A stretch of DNA of 64,000 nt from contig JAJZIL010000003.1 in assembly GCA_021810605.1 (NCBI GenBank), positions 214 through 64,213 of the forward strand, in the 5' to 3' direction. Source of the stretch: a bacterium (GTDB lineage Bacteria > Patescibacteriota > Dojkabacteria > JAKAPS01 > JAJZLI01). A program made the translations under genes and the position numbers. Below the pieces are notes generated by a model, which was not told the DNA's origin, made no database searches, and was given only the letters and a program-made list of their open reading frames with translations. Within the stretch, counting starts at the first letter, position 1. Each line of letters begins with the position of its first letter. Positions 11,869 to 20,647 of the stretch are shown here, piece by piece.

Positions 11869-13689
11869 TTATTTATCACCTTTTAGAAAAGATGCAATAT
11901 TCTTTGAGATAGGAAGATTTAATGATTCTTCAATCCAAAGATATTGACCATTTGGATTTAATTCTAAAAAATATATATTACTATTTTTATCTTGTATAAG
12001 ATCAATTGCAGAATAATTAAGATTATAATATTTATTTAATTTTAATAATTCATCTTCAATATCTTTAGATAATTTGTATTTTTCATAAGTTAAACTATTA
12101 TAATCTGTTCTAAAATCTATTCTTGATTTTTCTGAATGTGAAAATATTTTAGCAGCAAATATTTTATCTCCAATAATAGTAACTCTAATATCACAAACTT
12201 TATCTATAAATTCTTGACAAATAACAGGCATATAATTTAAATCAATTTTATCTATATCAACTATATTTGTTAAAGTAGTTTTAAATATCCCATCTTCTAA
12301 TCCTAAACTTTGAGATCTTAATGTTTTCATTACAAACTTATCTTGGAATATTTTTTTTATAATTTCTTTTTTATTAGTAATTACTGTTTTTGGTATATTC
12401 ATTTCTACAACATTTAGTTGATGTATTTTATTTGAAGCTATTCTCATATCTGATTTATTATTCACCCAGCTTCTTATTGGAATATTTAATATAATTCCTT
12501 CTAAAAATTCTATTTTTTCTTTTTTTGCAATATTAGATAAATTTATATTTTTTAAATACTTAGAAGAGGGTGTAATAAATATTGGTTTTCTCCACCAACA
12601 AATATCATATACACGCGAATATCTTTTATCAGTATCAAAAAACTCTCCAGTCATTTCTGAAAGAGTATCAACATACCCATCATTCTCTAAATCATTAACA
12701 CCAAATACATCAACATGATACTTATTTTTATCAATAAAAGTTAATACTTTCTGAACATGTGGATCATCTTGCTCTGATATAATAAGTATCTTTCTTTTTT
12801 TATATTTATATTTATCTGATATAAAAAACTTTTTATCATTAAGGATTCCAATAAAACCTCCAGGATCTATTTGTGAATACAAATCAACTTTATTGTTAAT
12901 ATATTTATAAATTTTATTAGTATTTTCTTTGTTAAATGAATCTTTTAAGGTTACTATTTGTGTACTTGCAAGCATATATACATCATTATCTATCTTATCA
13001 ATTAACTGAGATAATAACTTATTAGCAATATAATTGTACTTTTCTATAGAAGACAAATATGCAAGTTCTGGAATTATTTCAGACAAAAAAGTATCATATG
13101 TAATATTAAAAGGATATGTCAAAAATTCTTTTATTATATCTAATCTCTCATCAGGATCCTTTAAATAATAAAGATTGCAAATTACTTTACTAAATTTATA
13201 ATATGTAAGAAAAGATATTAAATTATCTATTCTACCATTAAATATTTTCTCTATATCTTCATTAGATTTTAACTTTAATAAATCTTTATAAAGTTTATAT
13301 GTTGTAAAATAACTCAAATTATTTTTATCAAAATACATTCTATTAGAAGATGGAATAAATTCATAATGATATAACATTGGTATTTCTTTCAATAATTTTT
13401 CATATTGCAAATTATCTTTATATTTAAACTTGATTTTATAAATATAAATACTATGTTTATATCTAACTCCAGGTCTTGCTGTCTTCATTACGTAATAATA
13501 TTGATTATTTTTAAATGTAAATATTTTTCCTATATCTTTAAAACTATTATCTACACATTTCCTATAAATATATTCAATAACCTCATCAATAAGGGAATTA
13601 CTTTCATTATTATAATAAATAACAAAGATTTCTTTATATATATCAAGATAATATTTTCTTCTTATATGTGGCATAATTAAAAATTTCAA
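11869..13689 (-). CDS. RiPP (graspetide/microviridin-type) ATP-grasp ligase with about 270-aa N-terminal extension
   Basis: The C-terminal ~330 aa are paralogous to the 25374..26390 ORF (shared DICWWRKP, SHSEKSRIDFRTDY, LNYSAIDL, FLELNPNGQYLWIE). A precursor-like peptide gene lies immediately upstream. Confidence 0.6.
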   Translation of the reverse strand: MKFLIMPHIRRKYYLDIYKEIFVIYYNNESNSLIDEVIEYIYRKCVDNSFKDIGKIFTFKNNQYYYVMKTARPGVRYKHSIYIYKIKFKYKDNLQYEKLLKEIPMLYHYEFIPSSNRMYFDKNNLSYFTTYKLYKDLLKLKSNEDIEKIFNGRIDNLISFLTYYKFSKVICNLYYLKDPDERLDIIKEFLTYPFNITYDTFLSEIIPELAYLSSIEKYNYIANKLLSQLIDKIDNDVYMLASTQIVTLKDSFNKENTNKIYKYINNKVDLYSQIDPGGFIGILNDKKFFISDKYKYKKRKILIISEQDDPHVQKVLTFIDKNKYHVDVFGVNDLENDGYVDTLSEMTGEFFDTDKRYSRVYDICWWRKPIFITPSSKYLKNINLSNIAKKEKIEFLEGIILNIPIRSWVNNKSDMRIASNKIHQLNVVEMNIPKTVITNKKEIIKKIFQDKFVMKTLRSQSLGLEDGIFKTTLTNIVDIDKIDLNYMPVICQEFIDKVCDIRVTIIGDKIFAAKIFSHSEKSRIDFRTDYNSLTYEKYKLSKDIEDELLKLNKYYNLNYSAIDLIQDKNSNIYFLELNPNGQYLWIEESLNLPISKNIASFLKGDK

Positions 13690-13723
13690 TTCTAATAAAT
13701 TATGATATTTCTTAGATTAAAGA

Positions 13724-13864
13724 TTAATCATCATTAGTATCATCTGCATCCTGTTTATGTGTAGAATGTGTTTGCCACATTACTATTGAATCATCAAACT
13801 CTTAAATATCATTATCTGTTAACCATTCAATTGGTGTAATTATATCTATTTTTAGAGTTTCCAT
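13724..13864 (-). pseudogene. graspetide-type precursor peptide interrupted by an in-frame TAA
   Basis: Translation METLKIDIITPIEWLTDNDI*EFDDSIVMWQTHSTHKQDADDTNDD*; the stop at codon 21 aligns with CAA (Gln) in the paralogous precursor at 27185..27319. Shared SD/start context ggaggtgatttatattATG. Confidence 0.4.
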
Positions 13865-13927
13865 AATATAAATCACCTCCTTATTTTTTAATTATTCATA
13901 TTATAATTTTTATCAATAAAAAAGACA

Positions 13928-13943
13928 TTGCTATGCATAGCAA
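13928..13943. promoter_or_regulatory. perfect 16-nt palindrome TTGCTATGCATAGCAA, putative operator upstream of precursor 1
   Basis: Lies about 64 bp upstream of the ATG; one of four conserved copies (14887, 20632, 27383) inside a conserved ~40-bp block. Confidence 0.55.
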
Positions 13944-14108
13944 ATTTCTATCTGGCATTAATTTAAAGGAATAATTTAGGTAGATAAATTTTTATTGAAA
14001 ATAGAGTATTTTTTTGAATTTCAGATAATTATTTTATATAGAGTATATAGATTTTGATAATAAAACTATTTTATGAATTTCTTCCTCCACTCATATATTT
14101 TTGTTTCT

Positions 14109-14825
14109 TTATTCTAATAGAATTGTGTTTCTAAAGTCATTATATATTAAGGTTTTTAAATAAACATAATCTTCAACTTTGTATGAGTTTTGATTTATTT
14201 TCATTAGAGATTTCTTTGTCTCTATTGAAATATAATTTTTATCATCAATCCAATTGTCAATAAATTCTTGAGAATTTATTGTATTTATTTCAAAAAAAGA
14301 GATATCTCCCTTATATAAGAGTATATCCTGTAGTATTCTAATTAAATATTTTTTAAATTTTATATTTAATTCATTTTCATTTTTTACAGTAAAATACCAA
14401 TGATCTAGCCTCCAAAAGTATTCTATTATTTGTGTTTTTATAGATTTTTTAATATTGCTATAATCTATAATAGAAAGTTTTCTTTGAAAAATATTATTTC
14501 CTAAAATTATTTTAGAGTTGGCTAAATGTAAAAGGAAAAATTCTCCATGATTTCCATGTTGAAAGTTACTCCATCCTATTAGTTCTAAATCAAACAAACT
14601 ATGTAATGTTATATCGATTCTATTATATTTAGATATTATTTTTTTCAAATTAATTAAATCCTTACTATCATATTTATCAAGAACTAAACAAAAATCATAA
14701 TCACTATAATCCGAATTAATATCTTTATTAAAAGCATTGGAACCATAATATAATAAACATACTATTCTATTCCCAAATAATAAAGAAATTTCTTCACTTA
14801 GCTTATTTTCCAATTTGTAATTCAT
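14109..14825 (-). CDS. nucleotidyltransferase-fold protein (Pol-beta-like NTase)
   Basis: YYGSNAFNKDINSDYSDYD matches the hG[GS]x9-13Dh[DE] NTase motif; preceded by a copy of the conserved operator block. Confidence 0.5.
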   Translation of the reverse strand: MNYKLENKLSEEISLLFGNRIVCLLYYGSNAFNKDINSDYSDYDFCLVLDKYDSKDLINLKKIISKYNRIDITLHSLFDLELIGWSNFQHGNHGEFFLLHLANSKIILGNNIFQRKLSIIDYSNIKKSIKTQIIEYFWRLDHWYFTVKNENELNIKFKKYLIRILQDILLYKGDISFFEINTINSQEFIDNWIDDKNYISIETKKSLMKINQNSYKVEDYVYLKTLIYNDFRNTILLE

Positions 14826-14886: not shown

Positions 14887-14902
14887 TTACTATGCATAAC
14901 AA
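14887..14902. promoter_or_regulatory. operator-like imperfect palindrome TTACTATGCATAACAA upstream of the NTase gene
   Basis: About 61 bp upstream of the start; the flanking cttattaataattttgtcttt block is near-identical to that upstream of precursor 3. Confidence 0.5.
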
Positions 14903-16266: not shown

Positions 16267-18231
16267 TTAATTTTTATTTAATTCTTTGTATATAAAACTG
16301 AATATCAAAGTATTTTTTTCAATTTGAGAATCTATATCTAAATTCCCCATATGCCCAGTATTTTCTTCTATATAAAGATAAGTTTTACCTAAAGAATAAT
16401 CTTGCATTTTCTTTGCAAATTTAAGAGGTTGAGCTAATCCTACTCTTGTATCATTAGTTGCTCCAGTTATTAATATATCAGGATATTTAATTCCTTTTTT
16501 TATATTTTGATAAGGACTCCAATTTAAAATATATTTTAATTCTTCTTTATTATCTGGATCTCCATACTCGTCTATCAATAAACTCCCACTACCATATTTT
16601 TTATAAATTAAAAAATCAACAATGGGAACTTCTGCAATTACTGCTTTATATAGACTAGGTCTCATAACCATCGCTGTTGAGACAATGAATCCTCCATGAC
16701 TTGTACCATTTATAAATAATTGTTTATTATTAGTATATTTATTATCTATAAGATACTCAGAGATAGAAATAAAATCTTCTATTGGTTTTATTTTATTTTT
16801 TGCTCCTTTCGTCTGATAATACCAATCTCTTCCAAATTCTATTCCTCCTCTAATATTTGCTATTACGTAAATTCCTCCATTATTTATGAATGATAAAGTC
16901 TCAGGACGATAATATGGTAAACTACTAATTCCAAACCCTCCATATCCATATAAAAGTGTTGGAGATGGTTTATCCAATTTATTATTTTTGTTATAAACAA
17001 TTGTTAATGGAATTTTTGTACCATCCTTAGACTTTACTAATTTATATTCTAATTTATAATTTTCAGAGGAAAATTCTTTTTTTACCTTACTTTGATATAT
17101 TTTTTCTAATTTATCTTTATCAAAAATATATTTATATATTGTATGTGGAAAAGTAATAGACTGAAAATATATATATGCATCATTATTATCTTTATCTGGA
17201 TTTAAAAACGCTATACCTTTAATATCAAAATTAATATCTCTTATGAAATTACCTTCATAATCATAGATCTTTATAAAATGTGATACATCTTTCAAATAGA
17301 GACAATATATATAATCTTTAGTGAATATATAGTCATATAATAAATAGTGTTTCGGTTTAATAAGAACTTTGCCTTCTAAATCTTTTTCTATATCTTTCAT
17401 ATCAATTTTGATTATCTCTCCAAATTCATTTTTTTTATCAGTATAAATTAACAACTTATCATTAATTATGTCCACATACATATTATAGTTTTTATATCTG
17501 TGTACTTTTAATATTTTTCTAGATATATTATCTTTTATTATAAGAAAATTTCCTTTTTTATAATCATTATTTATAATTATAGAATATTTTGAATTATCAT
17601 ATAAAGACATTTCCACAAAGGGCTCATTATCAAATTCACTTTCATTATCATTTAAAAACTTTTTATCTTTAGATTGAGCATCTCCTATTTCGTGATAATA
17701 GATTTCATACTTATATGAACTATAATCTCTAATATCACCCTCTGTATATATTTTTTTGATATAATAAAATCCTTTATCTTTATCCCAACATAGAAATGCA
17801 TAAATATTATCTATGCTATCTTTTACTTTTTCTCCATTACTATTAATTAAATGATAATAATATATTTCCAATCCTTGTTTTTCAGTTAGAAATGCAACTA
17901 ATTCCCCCGATTCTGAGGGTTTATATGTATAGAGCTCTTCATCATTAAATAAATTAAAATCAATAATCATTTTGGGATTATTCTCTTTATATTGAGAATA
18001 TAATTTTGAATATCTATCTTTATACGAATACTCCCCCCAATATTTATACTTACCTATAACTAAAGGAGTTGTTCTCCAAGAAACAAGTAAAGCTCTACTA
18101 ATATCTTTTTTAATTAATTCATAGTTTTTATCTTTTAAATATAATGAAGTTTTTTTATTTTCAGCTCTATAAAAATCAATAACACTTTTATTATTAATTT
18201 TTTCTAGATATTTATATTTGTCTTTATACAT
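16267..18231 (-). CDS. S9 family prolyl oligopeptidase (beta-propeller plus alpha/beta hydrolase)
   Basis: C-terminal catalytic domain with nucleophile elbow GTSHGG (GxSxGG) and downstream Asp/His region; about 400-aa N-terminal propeller-like region; located in the TOMM cluster. Confidence 0.7.
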   Translation of the reverse strand: MYKDKYKYLEKINNKSVIDFYRAENKKTSLYLKDKNYELIKKDISRALLVSWRTTPLVIGKYKYWGEYSYKDRYSKLYSQYKENNPKMIIDFNLFNDEELYTYKPSESGELVAFLTEKQGLEIYYYHLINSNGEKVKDSIDNIYAFLCWDKDKGFYYIKKIYTEGDIRDYSSYKYEIYYHEIGDAQSKDKKFLNDNESEFDNEPFVEMSLYDNSKYSIIINNDYKKGNFLIIKDNISRKILKVHRYKNYNMYVDIINDKLLIYTDKKNEFGEIIKIDMKDIEKDLEGKVLIKPKHYLLYDYIFTKDYIYCLYLKDVSHFIKIYDYEGNFIRDINFDIKGIAFLNPDKDNNDAYIYFQSITFPHTIYKYIFDKDKLEKIYQSKVKKEFSSENYKLEYKLVKSKDGTKIPLTIVYNKNNKLDKPSPTLLYGYGGFGISSLPYYRPETLSFINNGGIYVIANIRGGIEFGRDWYYQTKGAKNKIKPIEDFISISEYLIDNKYTNNKQLFINGTSHGGFIVSTAMVMRPSLYKAVIAEVPIVDFLIYKKYGSGSLLIDEYGDPDNKEELKYILNWSPYQNIKKGIKYPDILITGATNDTRVGLAQPLKFAKKMQDYSLGKTYLYIEENTGHMGNLDIDSQIEKNTLIFSFIYKELNKN

Positions 18232-18247
18232 ATATTTTTATTATATA

Positions 18248-18994
18248 CTAAGATATAACTATCGGATACACTATTAACTCTTCATTATTATGGATATCTA
18301 AGATTCCTAACAGTTTTTTATTATCAAATAAACCGAGTGGCCTACATTTCAATCCTATTGATTCAGATAATAGATAAATATTCTGTCCTATATGTCCAGC
18401 CTCAATATGTGAAAATGTATATGCCCTTTCTCCATATTTTACGGAAGACCTATTTATAATCGATGTTATTATTATAACTCCACTACATTTTACAGAAAAA
18501 TCTTGTTTAAATACTGAATATACTTCTTTTTTGTTAATTTCCCACATATATTCTAATGCATTCAATTTAACATTGTAATGATATAGTCCTTTTTTTAAAG
18601 TCTCTGTCTTAAAGATTATAATATATAATTCTAATGGATATCTTGATCCTCCTGATGGATATGCTCTTCTTGAATCATATTTTATATCTTTTCCTACATT
18701 TATTATTGCAGAAGATAAAAATATATTAGATAATATATCTTTTGTTAAATTATGAATATGATCTTTTTTAATTTGATAACTTTTTCTTTTTAGTATTGTA
18801 TCTATAAGGGAAGATTCATTATTATTTAGTATACTTTTATCTAAATATAATTTAGGAAATCTAGGATAACTTTTAAAATATATTCTCTTCCATGATTCTG
18901 GCCACTTAGATACAGGAGTACCTTTTTTTTTAGGTTTTATACTTCTAATTTTTTTATTTAATTTAAAAAAATAAAATTTGTCTTTTATGCTCAT
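18248..18994 (-). CDS. SagB-type dehydrogenase (nitroreductase superfamily) of TOMM clusters
   Basis: YPSGGSRYPLELY resembles the conserved P-S-x-G-x-x-YP motif of SagB/McbC-type FMN dehydrogenases; 3-bp spacing to YcaO. Confidence 0.55.
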   Translation of the reverse strand: MSIKDKFYFFKLNKKIRSIKPKKKGTPVSKWPESWKRIYFKSYPRFPKLYLDKSILNNNESSLIDTILKRKSYQIKKDHIHNLTKDILSNIFLSSAIINVGKDIKYDSRRAYPSGGSRYPLELYIIIFKTETLKKGLYHYNVKLNALEYMWEINKKEVYSVFKQDFSVKCSGVIIITSIINRSSVKYGERAYTFSHIEAGHIGQNIYLLSESIGLKCRPLGLFDNKKLLGILDIHNNEELIVYPIVIS

Positions 18995-18996
18995 AA

Positions 18997-20277
18997 TTAT
19001 AAAAAGAAATGAGGTATTTGATTCAATTCATTTTCTTTTAATGGATTCTTATAATAACCTAATCTTACTGGAATATCATATATTCTATTTCCGCCTAAAC
19101 ATTTATATGTTTCATCTAAATATAATGGATGTAAAGTGGGAATTATAACTTTAACAATTTCAAATTCATTATATTTTTTAAATTCTTTCTTTTTAATATT
19201 AATATAATAAATTTCATGATTTTTAGATTTTAGAATATTACTGACAAAAGATAAATCTTTTTCTATATTCTTTTGTGAAAGATTCTTTATTTTATTAAAT
19301 TTTATTTTCCTTTTATTCTTTATCCATGGAGTAATATATTGTAATTTATCATTATCTAACCAGTATAATTCTCGTTGCTGTATAGTATGTATATTATTAT
19401 ATTTAATACTTGTTTTATCTTTATCAAGTAATACATTTCTACTAAAATTTATTCCCATATATGATTCTTCAATAGATCCTATTGCAACTTTTAGTGGATT
19501 CAGTCCAGTTTTCATTCCTGCAGAAAATGGTATACCTAATCGTGTTTTATCTACTATCAATGTAAGGATTGTATATATTCCAAGATCTGTCGAAAGATTA
19601 ATAAGATATAGATCAAGATTATATTGTCTAAAATATTTTTTTATTTTCATTAATCTTTTATTCATTGTATAATCAATTAATTCTCCATATGTTTTTGCTA
19701 AATAATGGATCATAAACGCATCTCTTTCTATTACTTCAAAAGTTCCCCTTAATATAGCATCATTTAAAGTTTTACCTCCTGCTCCACCAGTAGATATAGA
19801 TTGCTGAATAATTTTTTCCCTTTTATTAGAGTTAAGAAACACTAATTGTGATGGAATTAATATCATATTTTTTGTATTAAATTCTATACATTTTACCCAA
19901 TAGAATTTATTATCATTATTGATTTTCAATTCTTTAGAATTATTATCAATCTGATGTTTTGAAAAATAAAAACTATTATTAATGCTTATATGTTTAATTT
20001 CTTTTTGATTTAATTCTTTAATAGAAGATTGTATAAACTTTTGACTTTCTTTTCTATCAGAAAAAAGGCATATTCTTTCAATTGATTCAAAAATAGCCTT
20101 CTCTTTAGCAATGTCTTTATTTTTAATTGATATTCCTGTTCCATAATCTAAGATTTTATTTAATTTCAATTCAGCTGTATACTTCTCAAAAAAGGGTAGA
20201 TCAGAAAAACCTAATTTTTCATTTAGATTAATTTTATACTCATCTACTAATTTTTTAACAATTTTTGAATTACTCAT
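18997..20277 (-). CDS. YcaO-domain cyclodehydratase (standalone, no E1-like N-terminal domain)
   Basis: Contains the YcaO motif GTGISIKNKDIAKEKAIFESIERI near the N-terminus. Confidence 0.65.
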   Translation of the reverse strand: MSNSKIVKKLVDEYKINLNEKLGFSDLPFFEKYTAELKLNKILDYGTGISIKNKDIAKEKAIFESIERICLFSDRKESQKFIQSSIKELNQKEIKHISINNSFYFSKHQIDNNSKELKINNDNKFYWVKCIEFNTKNMILIPSQLVFLNSNKREKIIQQSISTGGAGGKTLNDAILRGTFEVIERDAFMIHYLAKTYGELIDYTMNKRLMKIKKYFRQYNLDLYLINLSTDLGIYTILTLIVDKTRLGIPFSAGMKTGLNPLKVAIGSIEESYMGINFSRNVLLDKDKTSIKYNNIHTIQQRELYWLDNDKLQYITPWIKNKRKIKFNKIKNLSQKNIEKDLSFVSNILKSKNHEIYYINIKKKEFKKYNEFEIVKVIIPTLHPLYLDETYKCLGGNRIYDIPVRLGYYKNPLKENELNQIPHFFL

Positions 20278-20408
20278 TATAATTTGTTAGTTTAGGTTAG
20301 ATTAGAATTACATATATAAAATAGCAAATAATACACTCTAGGAAGACTAATTTATAATAAAATTACATCTCCCTAAAATCCGCTAGACAAGAAAATAGTG
20401 TTAGATTA

Positions 20409-20570
20409 TTAACATCTATGCCCATTTCCACAAGAGCAATTATTACATTGACACCTATTTCCATCTCCACAAGTTGAAGAGGATACGGTATCTAATGATT
20501 CTTCTACTTCTATTAAAGCATCTTCTATATCCTCCATACTTAATTCTTTTTCAATCGTTAATATTTCCAT
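20409..20570 (-). CDS. TOMM-type precursor peptide, 53 aa with Cys/Ser-rich core
   Basis: Hand translation MEILTIEKELSMEDIEDALIEVEESLDTVSSSTCGDGNRCQCNNCSCGNGHRC*. Acidic leader followed by a Cys/Ser/Thr/Gly/Asn core; SD AAGGAAGTG 7 nt upstream; TAA stop at 20409-20411; operator palindrome upstream. Confidence 0.6.
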   Translation of the reverse strand: MEILTIEKELSMEDIEDALIEVEESLDTVSSSTCGDGNRCQCNNCSCGNGHRC

Positions 20571-20631: not shown

Positions 20632-20647
20632 TTGCCATGCATGGCAA
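20632..20647. promoter_or_regulatory. perfect 16-nt palindrome TTGCCATGCATGGCAA, putative operator upstream of the TOMM precursor
   Basis: About 62 bp upstream of the precursor ATG; same family as the copies at 13928, 14887 and 27383. Confidence 0.55.

What the first reader, a model, noticed from the sequence alone, without database searches (positions are those of the whole stretch)
11869..13945. Graspetide-like cluster 1: ATP-grasp ligase with a 270-aa unknown N-terminal extension, and a precursor carrying an in-frame TAA where its paralog has CAA
The ligase here is 606 aa. Only its C-terminal half matches the 338-aa ligase of cluster 2, so the N-terminal ~270 aa form an extra domain of unknown function, possibly for leader binding. 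The cognate precursor reads METLKIDIITPIEWLTDNDI-TAA-EFDDSIVMWQTHSTHKQDADDTNDD. The stop codon sits exactly at the position of CAA (Gln) in precursor 3, so a single C-to-T change explains it. Either this is a recently inactivated precursor, so the cluster is decaying, or it is a base-call error, or the peptide is made as two pieces. The downstream core is Thr/Ser/Lys/Asp-rich, compatible with ester and amide crosslinks.
Basis: seen in the sequence. Interest (0 to 1): 0.65.

Follow-up and report, generated by a model that had tools for sequence, protein, structure and literature searches.

The report
Graspetide operon with knocked-out precursor
A two-gene operon for a ring-crosslinked peptide, from an uncultivated low-GC bacterium, in which a real, inherited C-to-T change has put a stop codon in the peptide gene (a sister strain still has CAA), and whose crosslinking enzyme carries a conserved 293-residue N-terminal domain with no detectable relatives outside a handful of related genomes.

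Summary
On the minus strand, a precursor gene (13864-13724) lies upstream of an ATP-grasp ligase (13674-11869; 601 aa from ATG, 606 from TTG).

The in-frame TAA (13802-13804) is not a base-call error. It is present in 8 other contigs assembled by different pipelines from several samples. Two contigs of a sister strain (99.7-99.9% identical) carry CAA as the only difference in 286 nt. More distant orthologues have CAA or AAA, so CAA is ancestral and TAA derived. TAA is the commonest stop codon in the window, and no suppressor tRNA is seen in the window. The best reading is a recent natural knock-out of the precursor, with the ligase gene still intact.

Ligase residues ~294-601 are a bona fide graspetide maturase: 56% identical to the 338-aa paralogue, and matching the solved structures of CdnC and MdnC. 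Residues 1-293 (not 270) form a real fused domain, in one continuous ORF in five genomes, with dN/dS of 0.17-0.39. It is an orphan: exhaustive HMMER, Pfam, PDB, PHROGs and PADLOC searches found nothing, and AlphaFold gave a low-confidence model. Its function is unknown; my best guess is a built-in partner or scaffold domain.

A conserved palindrome precedes all three RiPP precursor genes in the window.

The parts
11869..13674 (-).
   Evidence: ORF listing. The exact 601-aa product is on record on 11 contigs. Full-length orthologues share 59-85% identity.
12796..13674 (-). N-terminal orphan domain, residues 1-293
   Evidence: No Pfam or NCBIfam hit. Only P0001 and P0002 were found among 5.8e9 proteins. 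Only P0002 was found by exhaustive HMMER over 1.84e9 representatives. No PDB, PHROGs or PADLOC hit. dN/dS is 0.17-0.39. AlphaFold pLDDT is 44.
11869..12795 (-). ATP-grasp graspetide-maturase domain, residues 294-601 plus stop
   Evidence: TIGR04187 E 2e-46, and MvdC/MvdD models E about 1e-38. PF08443 RimK hit. PDB matches to CdnC 7mgv (6e-24) and to MdnC, MdnB, AMdnB and PsnB. 56% identity to the 338-aa paralogue. AlphaFold pLDDT is about 90.
13724..13864 (-). Precursor gene: 46 codons plus stop, interrupted at codon 21. The leader is 13805-13864 and the core-containing part is 13727-13801.
   Evidence: Translation. Intact 42-49-aa orthologues occur in L001, L002/L016, L015, L017, and in L006/L007.
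13802..13804 (-). In-frame TAA at codon 21. The variable base is window position 13804 (A on the + strand; G in the CAA allele).
   Evidence: TAA is present in the window and in L003, L004, L005, L008, L019, L020 and L021. CAA is present in L006 and L007. The outgroup codon is CAA in L015 and L017 and AAA in L001.
13876..13880 (-). Shine-Dalgarno GGAGG, 11 nt before the ATG
   Evidence: Position computed. The stretch AAGGAGGTGAT(T)TATATTATGGAAAC is nearly invariant in 8 precursor upstream regions.
13900..13905 (-). TATAAT, the likely -10 box (inferred)
   Evidence: Position computed. It is conserved in register in the upstream regions of the three window precursors and the orthologues. The generic promoter scan is uninformative in this AT-rich DNA.
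13928..13943 (.). Perfect palindrome TTGCTATGCATAGCAA, a candidate operator or activator site
   Evidence: There are 4 sites (8 strand matches) in the window against 0.22 expected by chance. Three of them precede the three RiPP precursor genes. The site is conserved in L002, L015, L016 and L017.

Best explanation
Cluster 1 is a minimal two-gene graspetide operon: palindromic operator, promoter, strong SD, a 46-codon precursor and a ligase.

Intact form (sister strain and orthologues):
- The precursor has a conserved leader, METL-x-D-x-I-T-P-[ILVF]-[ED]-W-L-x-D.
- It has a conserved core, M-W-Q-T-[YH]-S-T-[HW]-K-x-D-A-D-D-T-N-D-[DG].
- The ATP-grasp domain of the ligase is inferred to phosphorylate Asp side chains of this core and join them to Thr/Ser (esters) and possibly Lys (amide), as MdnC and CdnC do.

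This strain:
- A CAA-to-TAA transition at codon 21, in the variable linker between leader and core, ends translation after a 20-residue leader-only peptide.
- No modifiable core is made, so the cluster is a natural knock-out.
- The event is evolutionarily recent. The ligase ORF is intact and identical in protein sequence to that of the CAA strain.

The ligase:
- It is unusual in carrying a 293-residue N-terminal domain fused in frame.
- The domain is conserved under purifying selection in a small clade of uncultivated low-GC bacteria and has no detectable homologue elsewhere.
- Short paralogues recognise the same leader motif without it. I therefore infer that it is not the leader receptor but a built-in partner, scaffold or stabilising domain, or an unrecognised tailoring or processing activity specific to the MWQT-type cores.

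Shown: the anatomy, the homology, the polymorphism and its direction, and the selection on the domain. Inferred: the chemistry, the role of the N-terminal domain and the role of the promoter/operator.
For: - Graspetide ligase identity.
- Precursor family with conserved leader and core in 7 loci.
- The TAA is real and inherited. It occurs in the window plus L003, L004, L005, L008, L019, L020 and L021, which come from ENA, Logan, NCBI and JGI assemblies. These contigs are 99.96-99.99% identical to the window.
- The CAA allele in L006 and L007 is the sole difference in 286 nt, on contigs 99.7-99.86% identical to the window.
- Direction of change: the codon is CAA in L015 and L017 and AAA in L001.
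- The genetic code is standard. Stop-free stretches of at least 200 codons end in TAA 24 times, TAG 10 times and TGA 9 times. The 10 tRNAs in the window include no suppressor.
- No other copy of this precursor exists in the window.
- Possible early decay of the ligase in the TAA background: the L020 variant P574L hits a Pro that is invariant in 17 diverse ligases.
- The N-terminal domain is a continuous ORF in 5 genomes. Its dN/dS is 0.17-0.39, against 0.14-0.24 for the ATP-grasp part.
- Orphan status of the domain.
- All other homologues of the ATP-grasp part are 290-350 aa.
- Solved graspetide ligases are 333-360 aa.
Against: - No expression or chemical data exist. The crosslinks are inferred from family membership only.
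- TAA is the majority allele among the contigs seen and sits on three or four slightly different ligase haplotypes. It is therefore not brand new, and selection against it is evidently weak. That also fits scenarios in which the locus still does something.
- The contigs may not all be independent. NCBI MAGs and Logan or ENA assemblies may reuse the same reads.
- The ligase scores fall below the curated NCBIfam cut-offs (158 bits against 350 for TIGR04187).
- The partner/scaffold role for the N-terminal domain has no direct support. The structure prediction failed (pLDDT 44) and the fold search gave nothing.
Confidence: 0.8

Rival explanations
1. The TAA is a sequencing or assembly error, and the strain really has CAA.
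For: A single-base difference from the sister allele. The window comes from a metagenome-type assembly.
Against: The same T is present in 8 other contigs built by different pipelines (MEGAHIT k141 at ENA, Logan, JGI, NCBI MAGs) from several samples. It tracks strain background: TAA contigs are 99.96-99.99% identical to the window and CAA contigs 99.7-99.86%.
Confidence: 0.02
2. Split system. The 20-aa leader peptide is made alone. The core (MWQTHSTHKQDADDTNDD) is translated separately from the conserved ATG 24 nt after the TAA by re-initiation. The leader then activates the ligase in trans.
For: The Met of MWQ is conserved in all four close orthologues and lies 24 nt downstream of the stop. 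Leader peptides supplied in trans can activate RiPP tailoring enzymes in vitro (PMC13003496). The TAA allele is common and the ligase remains intact.
Against: There is no Shine-Dalgarno sequence before the internal ATG (sequence). Every orthologue and the sister strain encode one continuous peptide. The Met is conserved in those unsplit genes too, so it needs no such explanation. No natural split graspetide precursor came up in the literature I read.
Confidence: 0.04
3. Programmed readthrough or suppression of TAA gives a full-length precursor at a reduced level.
For: None directly. Only the persistence of the allele with an intact ligase.
Against: TAA is the most used genuine stop in the window (24 of 43 long ORFs), including the stop of this same precursor and of the ligase. 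No tRNA with a UUA anticodon is among the 10 in the window. There is no stimulatory structure downstream; the fold of the intergenic region has a z-score of 0.1.
Confidence: 0.03
4. The locus is not dead. The long ligase is kept because it also modifies the cluster-2 precursor (27206-27319), which shares the leader motif, so loss of its own precursor is tolerated.
For: The shared leader METL...P-[LI]-E-W-[LI]-x-D and a shared T-Y-[ST]...D-D-x-D core skeleton. The same palindromic operator sits in front of both precursors, which suggests co-regulation. The ligase ORF is intact.
Against: Cluster 2 has its own ligase, 56% identical. The cores differ strongly. Intactness is equally explained by the mutation being recent. 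One TAA-background variant already carries P574L at an invariant Pro.
Confidence: 0.15
5. The N-terminal 293 aa are a separate gene, or junk, fused to the ligase by a frameshift or a miscalled start.
For: No homology to any known domain. One relative (L002) has a frameshift elsewhere in the gene.
Against: A single continuous ORF of 601-608 aa in the window, L015, L016 and L017, and as far as contig L001 reaches. dN/dS of 0.17-0.39 shows a translated, constrained sequence. There is no internal start or SD at the junction, and the junction sequence (YKYKKRKILIISE) is conserved.
Confidence: 0.02

Closest known systems
Graspetide (omega-ester/amide peptide) macrocyclases with solved structures: CdnC (7mgv), MdnC/MdnB (5ig9/5ig8), AMdnB (7m4s), PsnB (7drm)
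   Same: The C-terminal 308 residues align end to end with these enzymes, E 6e-24 to 8e-6. The gene sits next to a short precursor with a leader and a Thr/Ser/Lys/Asp-rich core.
   Different: All of these are 333-360 aa single-module enzymes. This one has 293 extra N-terminal residues of unknown fold. Identity to them is low, and it falls below the NCBIfam cut-offs for every subfamily.
Microviridin clusters (MdnA, MdnB, MdnC, MdnD; NCBIfam TIGR04184/TIGR04185)
   Same: Same enzyme superfamily. The core composition (T, S, K, then acidic residues) recalls TxKxPSDx(D/E)(D/E).
   Different: There is one ligase instead of two and no GNAT. The leader motif is P-x-[ED]-W-L, not PFFARFL (motif from my own knowledge). 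The MvdC and MvdD models score 132-133 bits against cut-offs of 425-475. The precursor hits no curated precursor model.
Graspetide loci of candidate-phyla-radiation bacteria (branches 1 and 2 of Makarova et al. 2022, PMC8939145)
   Same: Uncultivated small-genome-type lineages: one related locus, L018, is labelled 'Patescibacteria group bacterium'. Short precursors with a Pro-containing hydrophobic leader motif and Thr...Asp cores.
   Different: Those loci are described with separate accessory genes (the cluster 23 lipoprotein family, TPR proteins, peptidases), not with a ligase carrying an N-terminal fusion. The signature TxxxTx(6-10)Dx(1-4)D does not fit the MWQT core. I could not test whether this ligase falls in those branches.
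Partner-protein-dependent graspetide synthetases (MirB with MirC, Carter et al. 2026, PMC13097080)
   Same: The idea that a graspetide ATP-grasp enzyme needs an extra protein module for stability or activity.
   Different: MirC is a separate SurA/PpiC-like protein (TIGR04500). Here the extra module is fused in cis and has no PpiC or SurA similarity. The functional parallel is my inference only.

Membership tests
Graspetide biosynthetic cluster (RiPP class) | ATP-grasp ligase homologous to MdnB/MdnC-type peptide maturases | tested here: met
   TIGR04187 E 2e-46, and TIGR04184/5 E about 1e-38. PDB matches to CdnC, MdnC, AMdnB and PsnB. Residues nearly invariant across 22 ligases are present.
Graspetide biosynthetic cluster (RiPP class) | Adjacent short precursor gene with a conserved leader and a core offering Thr/Ser/Lys donors and Asp/Glu acceptors | tested here: met
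   A 46-codon gene lies 50 nt upstream of the ligase. Leader and core are conserved in 7 loci. In this strain it is interrupted by TAA.
Graspetide biosynthetic cluster (RiPP class) | Side-chain ester or amide macrocycles actually installed | not testable with these tools
   Needs co-expression and mass spectrometry.
NCBIfam TIGR04187 (GRASP_SAV_5884 subfamily) | Score at or above the curated cut-off (350 bits) | tested here: not met
   158.4 bits. The ligase is related to, but not a member of, any curated subfamily. Its closest relatives above 50% identity are confined to its own small clade.
Microviridin family | MvdC/MvdD equivalog scores, two ligases plus a GNAT, and a recognisable microviridin-type precursor | tested here: not met
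   132-133 bits against cut-offs of 425-475. There is a single ligase and no GNAT in the operon. No precursor model hit.
RiPP recognition element (PqqD-like RRE) as identity of the N-terminal domain | Detectable similarity to PqqD/RRE profiles or a winged-helix fold | tested here: inconclusive
   No Pfam hit of any kind at E <= 10 for 5 family members. The predicted strand-strand-strand-helix-helix stretch (residues 45-103) has pLDDT below 50, so the fold cannot be judged.
Partner-protein-dependent graspetide systems (MirC-like) | PpiC/SurA-like partner (TIGR04500) | tested here: not met
   No such hit in the ligase or its neighbours.
Degenerate duplicated ATP-grasp module as identity of the N-terminal domain | Profile similarity of residues 1-293 to graspetide ligases | tested here: not met
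   hhalign of A2 against A7 gives probability 0.3%.

The most novel reading that the evidence does not exclude
The 293-residue orphan domain is a new functional module of graspetide biosynthesis fused to the macrocyclase. It could be a built-in partner or chaperone, a leader peptidase, or a second tailoring activity, and it would be specific to a precursor family (MWQT-x-ST-x-K-x-DADDTNDD) in an uncultivated, possibly Patescibacteria-related lineage. The CAA and TAA strains would then offer a natural isogenic on/off pair for studying what the peptide does in situ.
Probability: 0.3. Interest if true: 0.6.

Novelty: new variant of a known kind. Interest (0 to 1): 0.42.

Why it matters
Every characterised graspetide macrocyclase listed is a stand-alone enzyme of about 330-360 aa. 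Dependence on an extra protein was reported only in 2026 (PMC13097080). A macrocyclase with a conserved, selected, fused domain of unknown fold would therefore extend the known architectures of this RiPP class and would come with an uncatalogued precursor family.

The nonsense allele itself is ordinary biology: a segregating loss-of-function mutation. It is still useful in two ways. It shows the stop is not an artefact. It also supplies a natural pair of near-identical strains, with and without the peptide, in the same set of metagenomes.

The shared palindrome in front of three different RiPP precursor genes points to a single regulator for the organism's peptide arsenal.

Tried and rejected
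Searches for the identity of the N-terminal domain (all negative):
- Pfam and NCBIfam at normal thresholds, and Pfam at E <= 10.
- PHROGs and PADLOC.
- PDB profile search.
- Word-indexed search of 5.8e9 proteins; only two relatives found.
- Exhaustive HMMER profile search of 1.84e9 representatives; only P0002 found.
- JGI metagenome scan with the N-terminal alignment; none found.
- hhalign against the neighbouring 235-aa and 238-aa proteins, testing the idea that the domain is a fused version of the cluster-2 middle gene. Rejected.
- hhalign against ATP-grasp ligases, testing a degenerate duplication. Rejected.

Structure:
- AlphaFold on the domain alone (3 sequences) gave pLDDT 44.
- AlphaFold on the full-length protein (22 sequences) left the N-terminal part below 50 while the ATP-grasp part reached about 90.

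Provenance and taxonomy:
- An exact-pattern scan of JGI metagenomes around the TAA site found nothing.
- A paper search for the sample accessions found nothing.
- Taxonomy via the iPGM gene: the closest named relatives are only about 46% identical (Clostridia), so the lineage stays unplaced.

Other:
- The generic promoter and terminator scan is uninformative in 25% GC DNA: 45 hits against 41 expected.
- The look-up of the TTG-start 606-aa product failed. The ATG-start 601-aa form is the one on record.
Full report
**1. What is there**

The window has 25% GC. On the minus strand there are two adjacent genes.
- A small ORF starts at the ATG at 13864. It is preceded by AAGGAGGTGA.
- A long ORF runs from 13689 (TTG) or 13674 (ATG) down to 11869.

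The small ORF translates as METLKIDIITPIEWLTDNDI, then TAA (13804-13802), then in the same frame EFDDSIVMWQTHSTHKQDADDTNDD, then TAA.

The long ORF is 606 aa from the TTG. The form on record in public assemblies, and the form that aligns with all orthologues, starts at the ATG and is 601 aa.

**2. The ligase**

Evidence that the C-terminal part is a graspetide macrocyclase:
- Residues 298-604 align with residues 25-337 of the 338-aa ligase at 25374-26390 (56% identity, E 2e-115).
- This part matches the NCBIfam 'ATP-grasp ribosomal peptide maturase' models: TIGR04187 at E 2e-46, and MvdC/MvdD at about 1e-38. All of these scores are below the curated cut-offs.
- It matches Pfam RimK.
- It matches the solved graspetide macrocyclases CdnC, MdnC, MdnB, AMdnB and PsnB.
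- AlphaFold models it confidently, with pLDDT of about 90.
- Residues that are nearly invariant across 22 ligases are present.

So the C-terminal half is a bona fide graspetide macrocyclase. It belongs to a small isolated clade: relatives above 50% identity are few, and the next drop is to about 33%.

**3. The N-terminal domain**

The extra part is residues 1 to about 293, not 270.

It is not an annotation artefact:
- The same continuous 601-608-aa ORF exists in three MAG loci: L015 (85% identity), L017 (84%) and L016 (59%).
- It also exists in two short metagenome contigs: L001 (76% over the domain) and L002 (48% over the domain).
- Pairwise dN/dS of the domain is 0.17-0.39, similar to 0.14-0.24 for the ATP-grasp part.

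It has no detectable relatives outside this clade:
- No Pfam, NCBIfam, PHROGs or PADLOC hit.
- No PDB hit.
- No further protein in a word-indexed search of 5.8e9 sequences.
- No further protein in an exhaustive HMMER profile search of 1.84e9 cluster representatives.
- Nothing in JGI metagenome contigs.

It is not related to the unknown 235-aa protein that sits between precursor and ligase in cluster 2, nor to the upstream 238-aa protein, nor to ATP-grasp modules.

AlphaFold failed on it (pLDDT 44; only a helical stretch at about 160-230 reaches 60-80). A Foldseek search with that model gave nothing significant.

All other homologues of the ATP-grasp part are 290-350 aa, and the solved enzymes are 333-360 aa. 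The architecture is therefore specific to this clade.

**4. The precursor family**

Intact precursors lie directly upstream of every related ligase.

| Locus | Precursor |
|---|---|
| L001 | METLETDTITPVEWLTDNDVKKFDTRTPMWQTYSTHKDDADDTNDDF |
| L015 | METLERDTITPIDWLKDDVQEFDPEFDTKIVMWQTYSTWKSDADDTNDG |
| L017 | METLEKDIITPLEWLTDDNVQKITMWQTYSTHKDDADDTNDD |
| L016/L002 | METDTITPFDWLKDEVDEQIDSTKMTTLNSDDDSPSTTYTSSQPNDNDD |
| Window cluster 2 (short ligase) | METLNEVNPLEWIQDTEIQEITNGEETYTAYDDRDNI |
| L018 (short ligase) | METLENINPLEWLKDTDKQDTEILLGSATYTGAGTNNCDDQD |

- Across all seven (the six listed above plus the window's cluster-1 precursor), M1, E2, T3, P11, W14, D17, T32 and D45 are invariant.
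- The leader motif P-x-[ED]-W-[LI]-x-D is shared by long-ligase and short-ligase systems. This argues that the N-terminal domain is not what reads this motif (inference).
- The precursors hit no curated precursor model.
- There is no second copy of the cluster-1 precursor in the window.

**5. The TAA**

*The polymorphism*
- Looking up the exact 601-aa ligase returned 11 contigs.
- In the 286 nt upstream of the ligase, L003, L004, L005 and L008 are identical to the window.
- L006 and L007 differ at one base only, which turns TAA into CAA.
- Three further contigs with ligase variants at least 90% identical also carry TAA: L019, L020 and L021.

*Strain background*
- TAA contigs are 99.96-99.99% identical to the window over 11-22 kb.
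- CAA contigs are 99.7-99.86% identical.
- These are two closely related strain lineages.
- The contigs come from ENA (MEGAHIT), Logan, JGI and NCBI assemblies of several samples. The stop is therefore reproducible and inherited, although some assemblies may share reads.

*Direction of change*
- The orthologous codon is CAA in L015 and L017 and AAA in L001.
- The site lies in the variable linker between the conserved leader and the conserved core.

*Genetic code*
- All three stop codons terminate long ORFs in the window: TAA 24, TAG 10, TGA 9.
- The precursor and the ligase both end in TAA.
- None of the 10 tRNAs in the window is a suppressor.

*Interpretation*
- The simplest reading is that translation stops after a 20-residue leader-only peptide and no core is made.
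- The ligase is still intact. Its protein sequence is identical to that of the CAA strain, with one synonymous difference. The loss is therefore recent.
- There is a hint of relaxed constraint. The single differences in L019 (S414A) and L020 (P574L) are both non-synonymous. P574 is the Pro of the NPNGQ motif, which is invariant in 17 diverse ligases. With n = 2, and contig errors possible, this is only a hint.

**6. Alternatives**

- A split leader/core system is conceivable. A conserved Met lies 24 nt after the stop, and leaders can act in trans in vitro (PMC13003496).
  - Against it: there is no SD before that Met, all relatives encode one peptide, and nothing positive supports the idea.
- Readthrough is unlikely for the reasons given in section 5.
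- The ligase might still act on the cluster-2 precursor, which shares the leader motif and the upstream operator. This cannot be tested here.

**7. Regulation and context**

*Shared upstream architecture*
- All three RiPP precursor genes of the window share an upstream architecture. They are cluster 1, cluster 2, and the Cys-rich 53-aa precursor of the YcaO / nitroreductase / S9 peptidase cluster at 16267-20570.
- The order of elements is:
  1. a 16-nt palindrome, TTGCYATGYATRGCAA;
  2. 22 nt of spacer;
  3. TATAAT;
  4. about 20 nt of spacer;
  5. AAGGAGGTGA;
  6. the start, ATGGAAA.
- The palindrome occurs at 4 sites in the window (8 strand matches, against 0.22 expected by chance). The fourth is a degenerate copy in front of the 238-aa nucleotidyltransferase-like gene at 14109-14825.
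- It is conserved upstream of the precursors in L015, L016, L017 and L002, but not in L001 or L018.
- Its position suggests a dimeric regulator common to the organism's RiPP clusters. The centre is about 42 nt upstream of the start site implied by the -10 box. This is inference.

*Operon content*
- No accessory gene is syntenic with the long ligase across species. The conserved unit is operator, precursor and ligase.
- L016 adds an ABC exporter. The window has one only in cluster 2.

**8. Organism**

- Related loci come from MAGs labelled only 'bacterium' and, for L018, 'Patescibacteria group bacterium'.
- A housekeeping gene (iPGM) has named relatives only at about 46% identity.
- The lineage is uncultivated and unplaced. 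A CPR affiliation is possible but not shown.
- Graspetide loci in CPR bacteria have been described (PMC8939145), but with separate accessory proteins. That paper, as I read it, mentions no N-terminally extended ligase.
- Partner-protein dependence of graspetide synthetases was first reported in 2026 (PMC13097080).

**9. Verdict**

- The stop codon is a real, ordinary, recent nonsense polymorphism (CAA to TAA) that knocks out the precursor in this strain lineage.
- The cluster is a graspetide operon of an uncatalogued precursor family.
- Its most interesting feature is the conserved orphan N-terminal domain fused to the macrocyclase, whose function remains unknown.
- It is a new variant of a known kind, of moderate interest.

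Noticed in passing
window 13928-13943, 20632-20647, 27383-27398, 14887-14902; also L015 1229-1244, L016 5746-5761/9701-9716/13226-13241, L017 5718-5733, L002 689-704: A 16-nt palindrome, TTGCYATGYATRGCAA, sits at a fixed distance (22 nt) upstream of a TATAAT box in front of all three RiPP precursor genes. A degenerate copy lies before the 238-aa NTase-like gene. There are 8 strand matches against 0.22 expected by chance. The palindrome is conserved across species and is probably a shared regulator site.
   Followed up: partly
window 16267-20570 (minus strand): A third RiPP cluster lies between the two graspetide clusters. It has a 53-aa Cys-rich precursor (20409-20570, ...SSSTCGDGNRCQCNNCSCGNGHRC), a YcaO protein (18997-20277), a nitroreductase/SagB-like protein (18248-18994) and an S9 prolyl oligopeptidase (16267-18231).
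   Followed up: no
window 23551-27319 (minus strand): Cluster 2 appears intact. It has a 37-aa precursor; an 11-bp hairpin immediately after its stop codon (about 27165-27195, dG -15.9 kcal/mol, z -2.3); an unknown 235-aa protein with no family hit; a 338-aa ligase; and a 599-aa ABC exporter whose profile matches show no N-terminal C39 peptidase domain. Cluster 1 has no such hairpin and no exporter.
   Followed up: partly
window 27600-28203 (minus strand): A histidine-phosphatase gene looks split. A 45-aa ORF (28066-28203) carries the N-terminal RHG motif. A separate 141-aa ORF (27600-28025) matches only positions 59-187 of PF00300. This is a possible second pseudogene near the RiPP clusters.
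   Followed up: no
L020 (ligase nt 1721), L019 (nt 1240), L021 (nt 1488-1693): There are ligase variants in TAA-allele contigs. P574L falls in the invariant NPNGQ motif, S414A is a second single change, and 15 substitutions are packed into 205 nt at the 3' end of L021, which looks like a recombination tract.
   Followed up: partly
L002 2406-2506 versus L016 6001-7818: The L002 copy of the divergent long ligase is frameshifted (511/520 aa plus a 118-aa ORF). The same gene type is intact (605 aa) in MAG locus L016. This is either an assembly error or another strain-level inactivation.
   Followed up: no
L016 10819-12270: The MAG with two long-ligase loci also carries fragments of a short ligase (77-aa and 155-aa ORFs). 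They are followed by a 238-aa protein 78% identical to the one downstream of the L018 short ligase. This looks like a decayed third graspetide locus.
   Followed up: no
window 14109-14825 (minus strand): The 238-aa protein upstream of the precursor has a nucleotidyltransferase-like G-S...D-x-D motif and a weak MntA hit (E 0.005). It is not syntenic with the long ligase in other species, but it has the degenerate palindrome upstream.
   Followed up: partly
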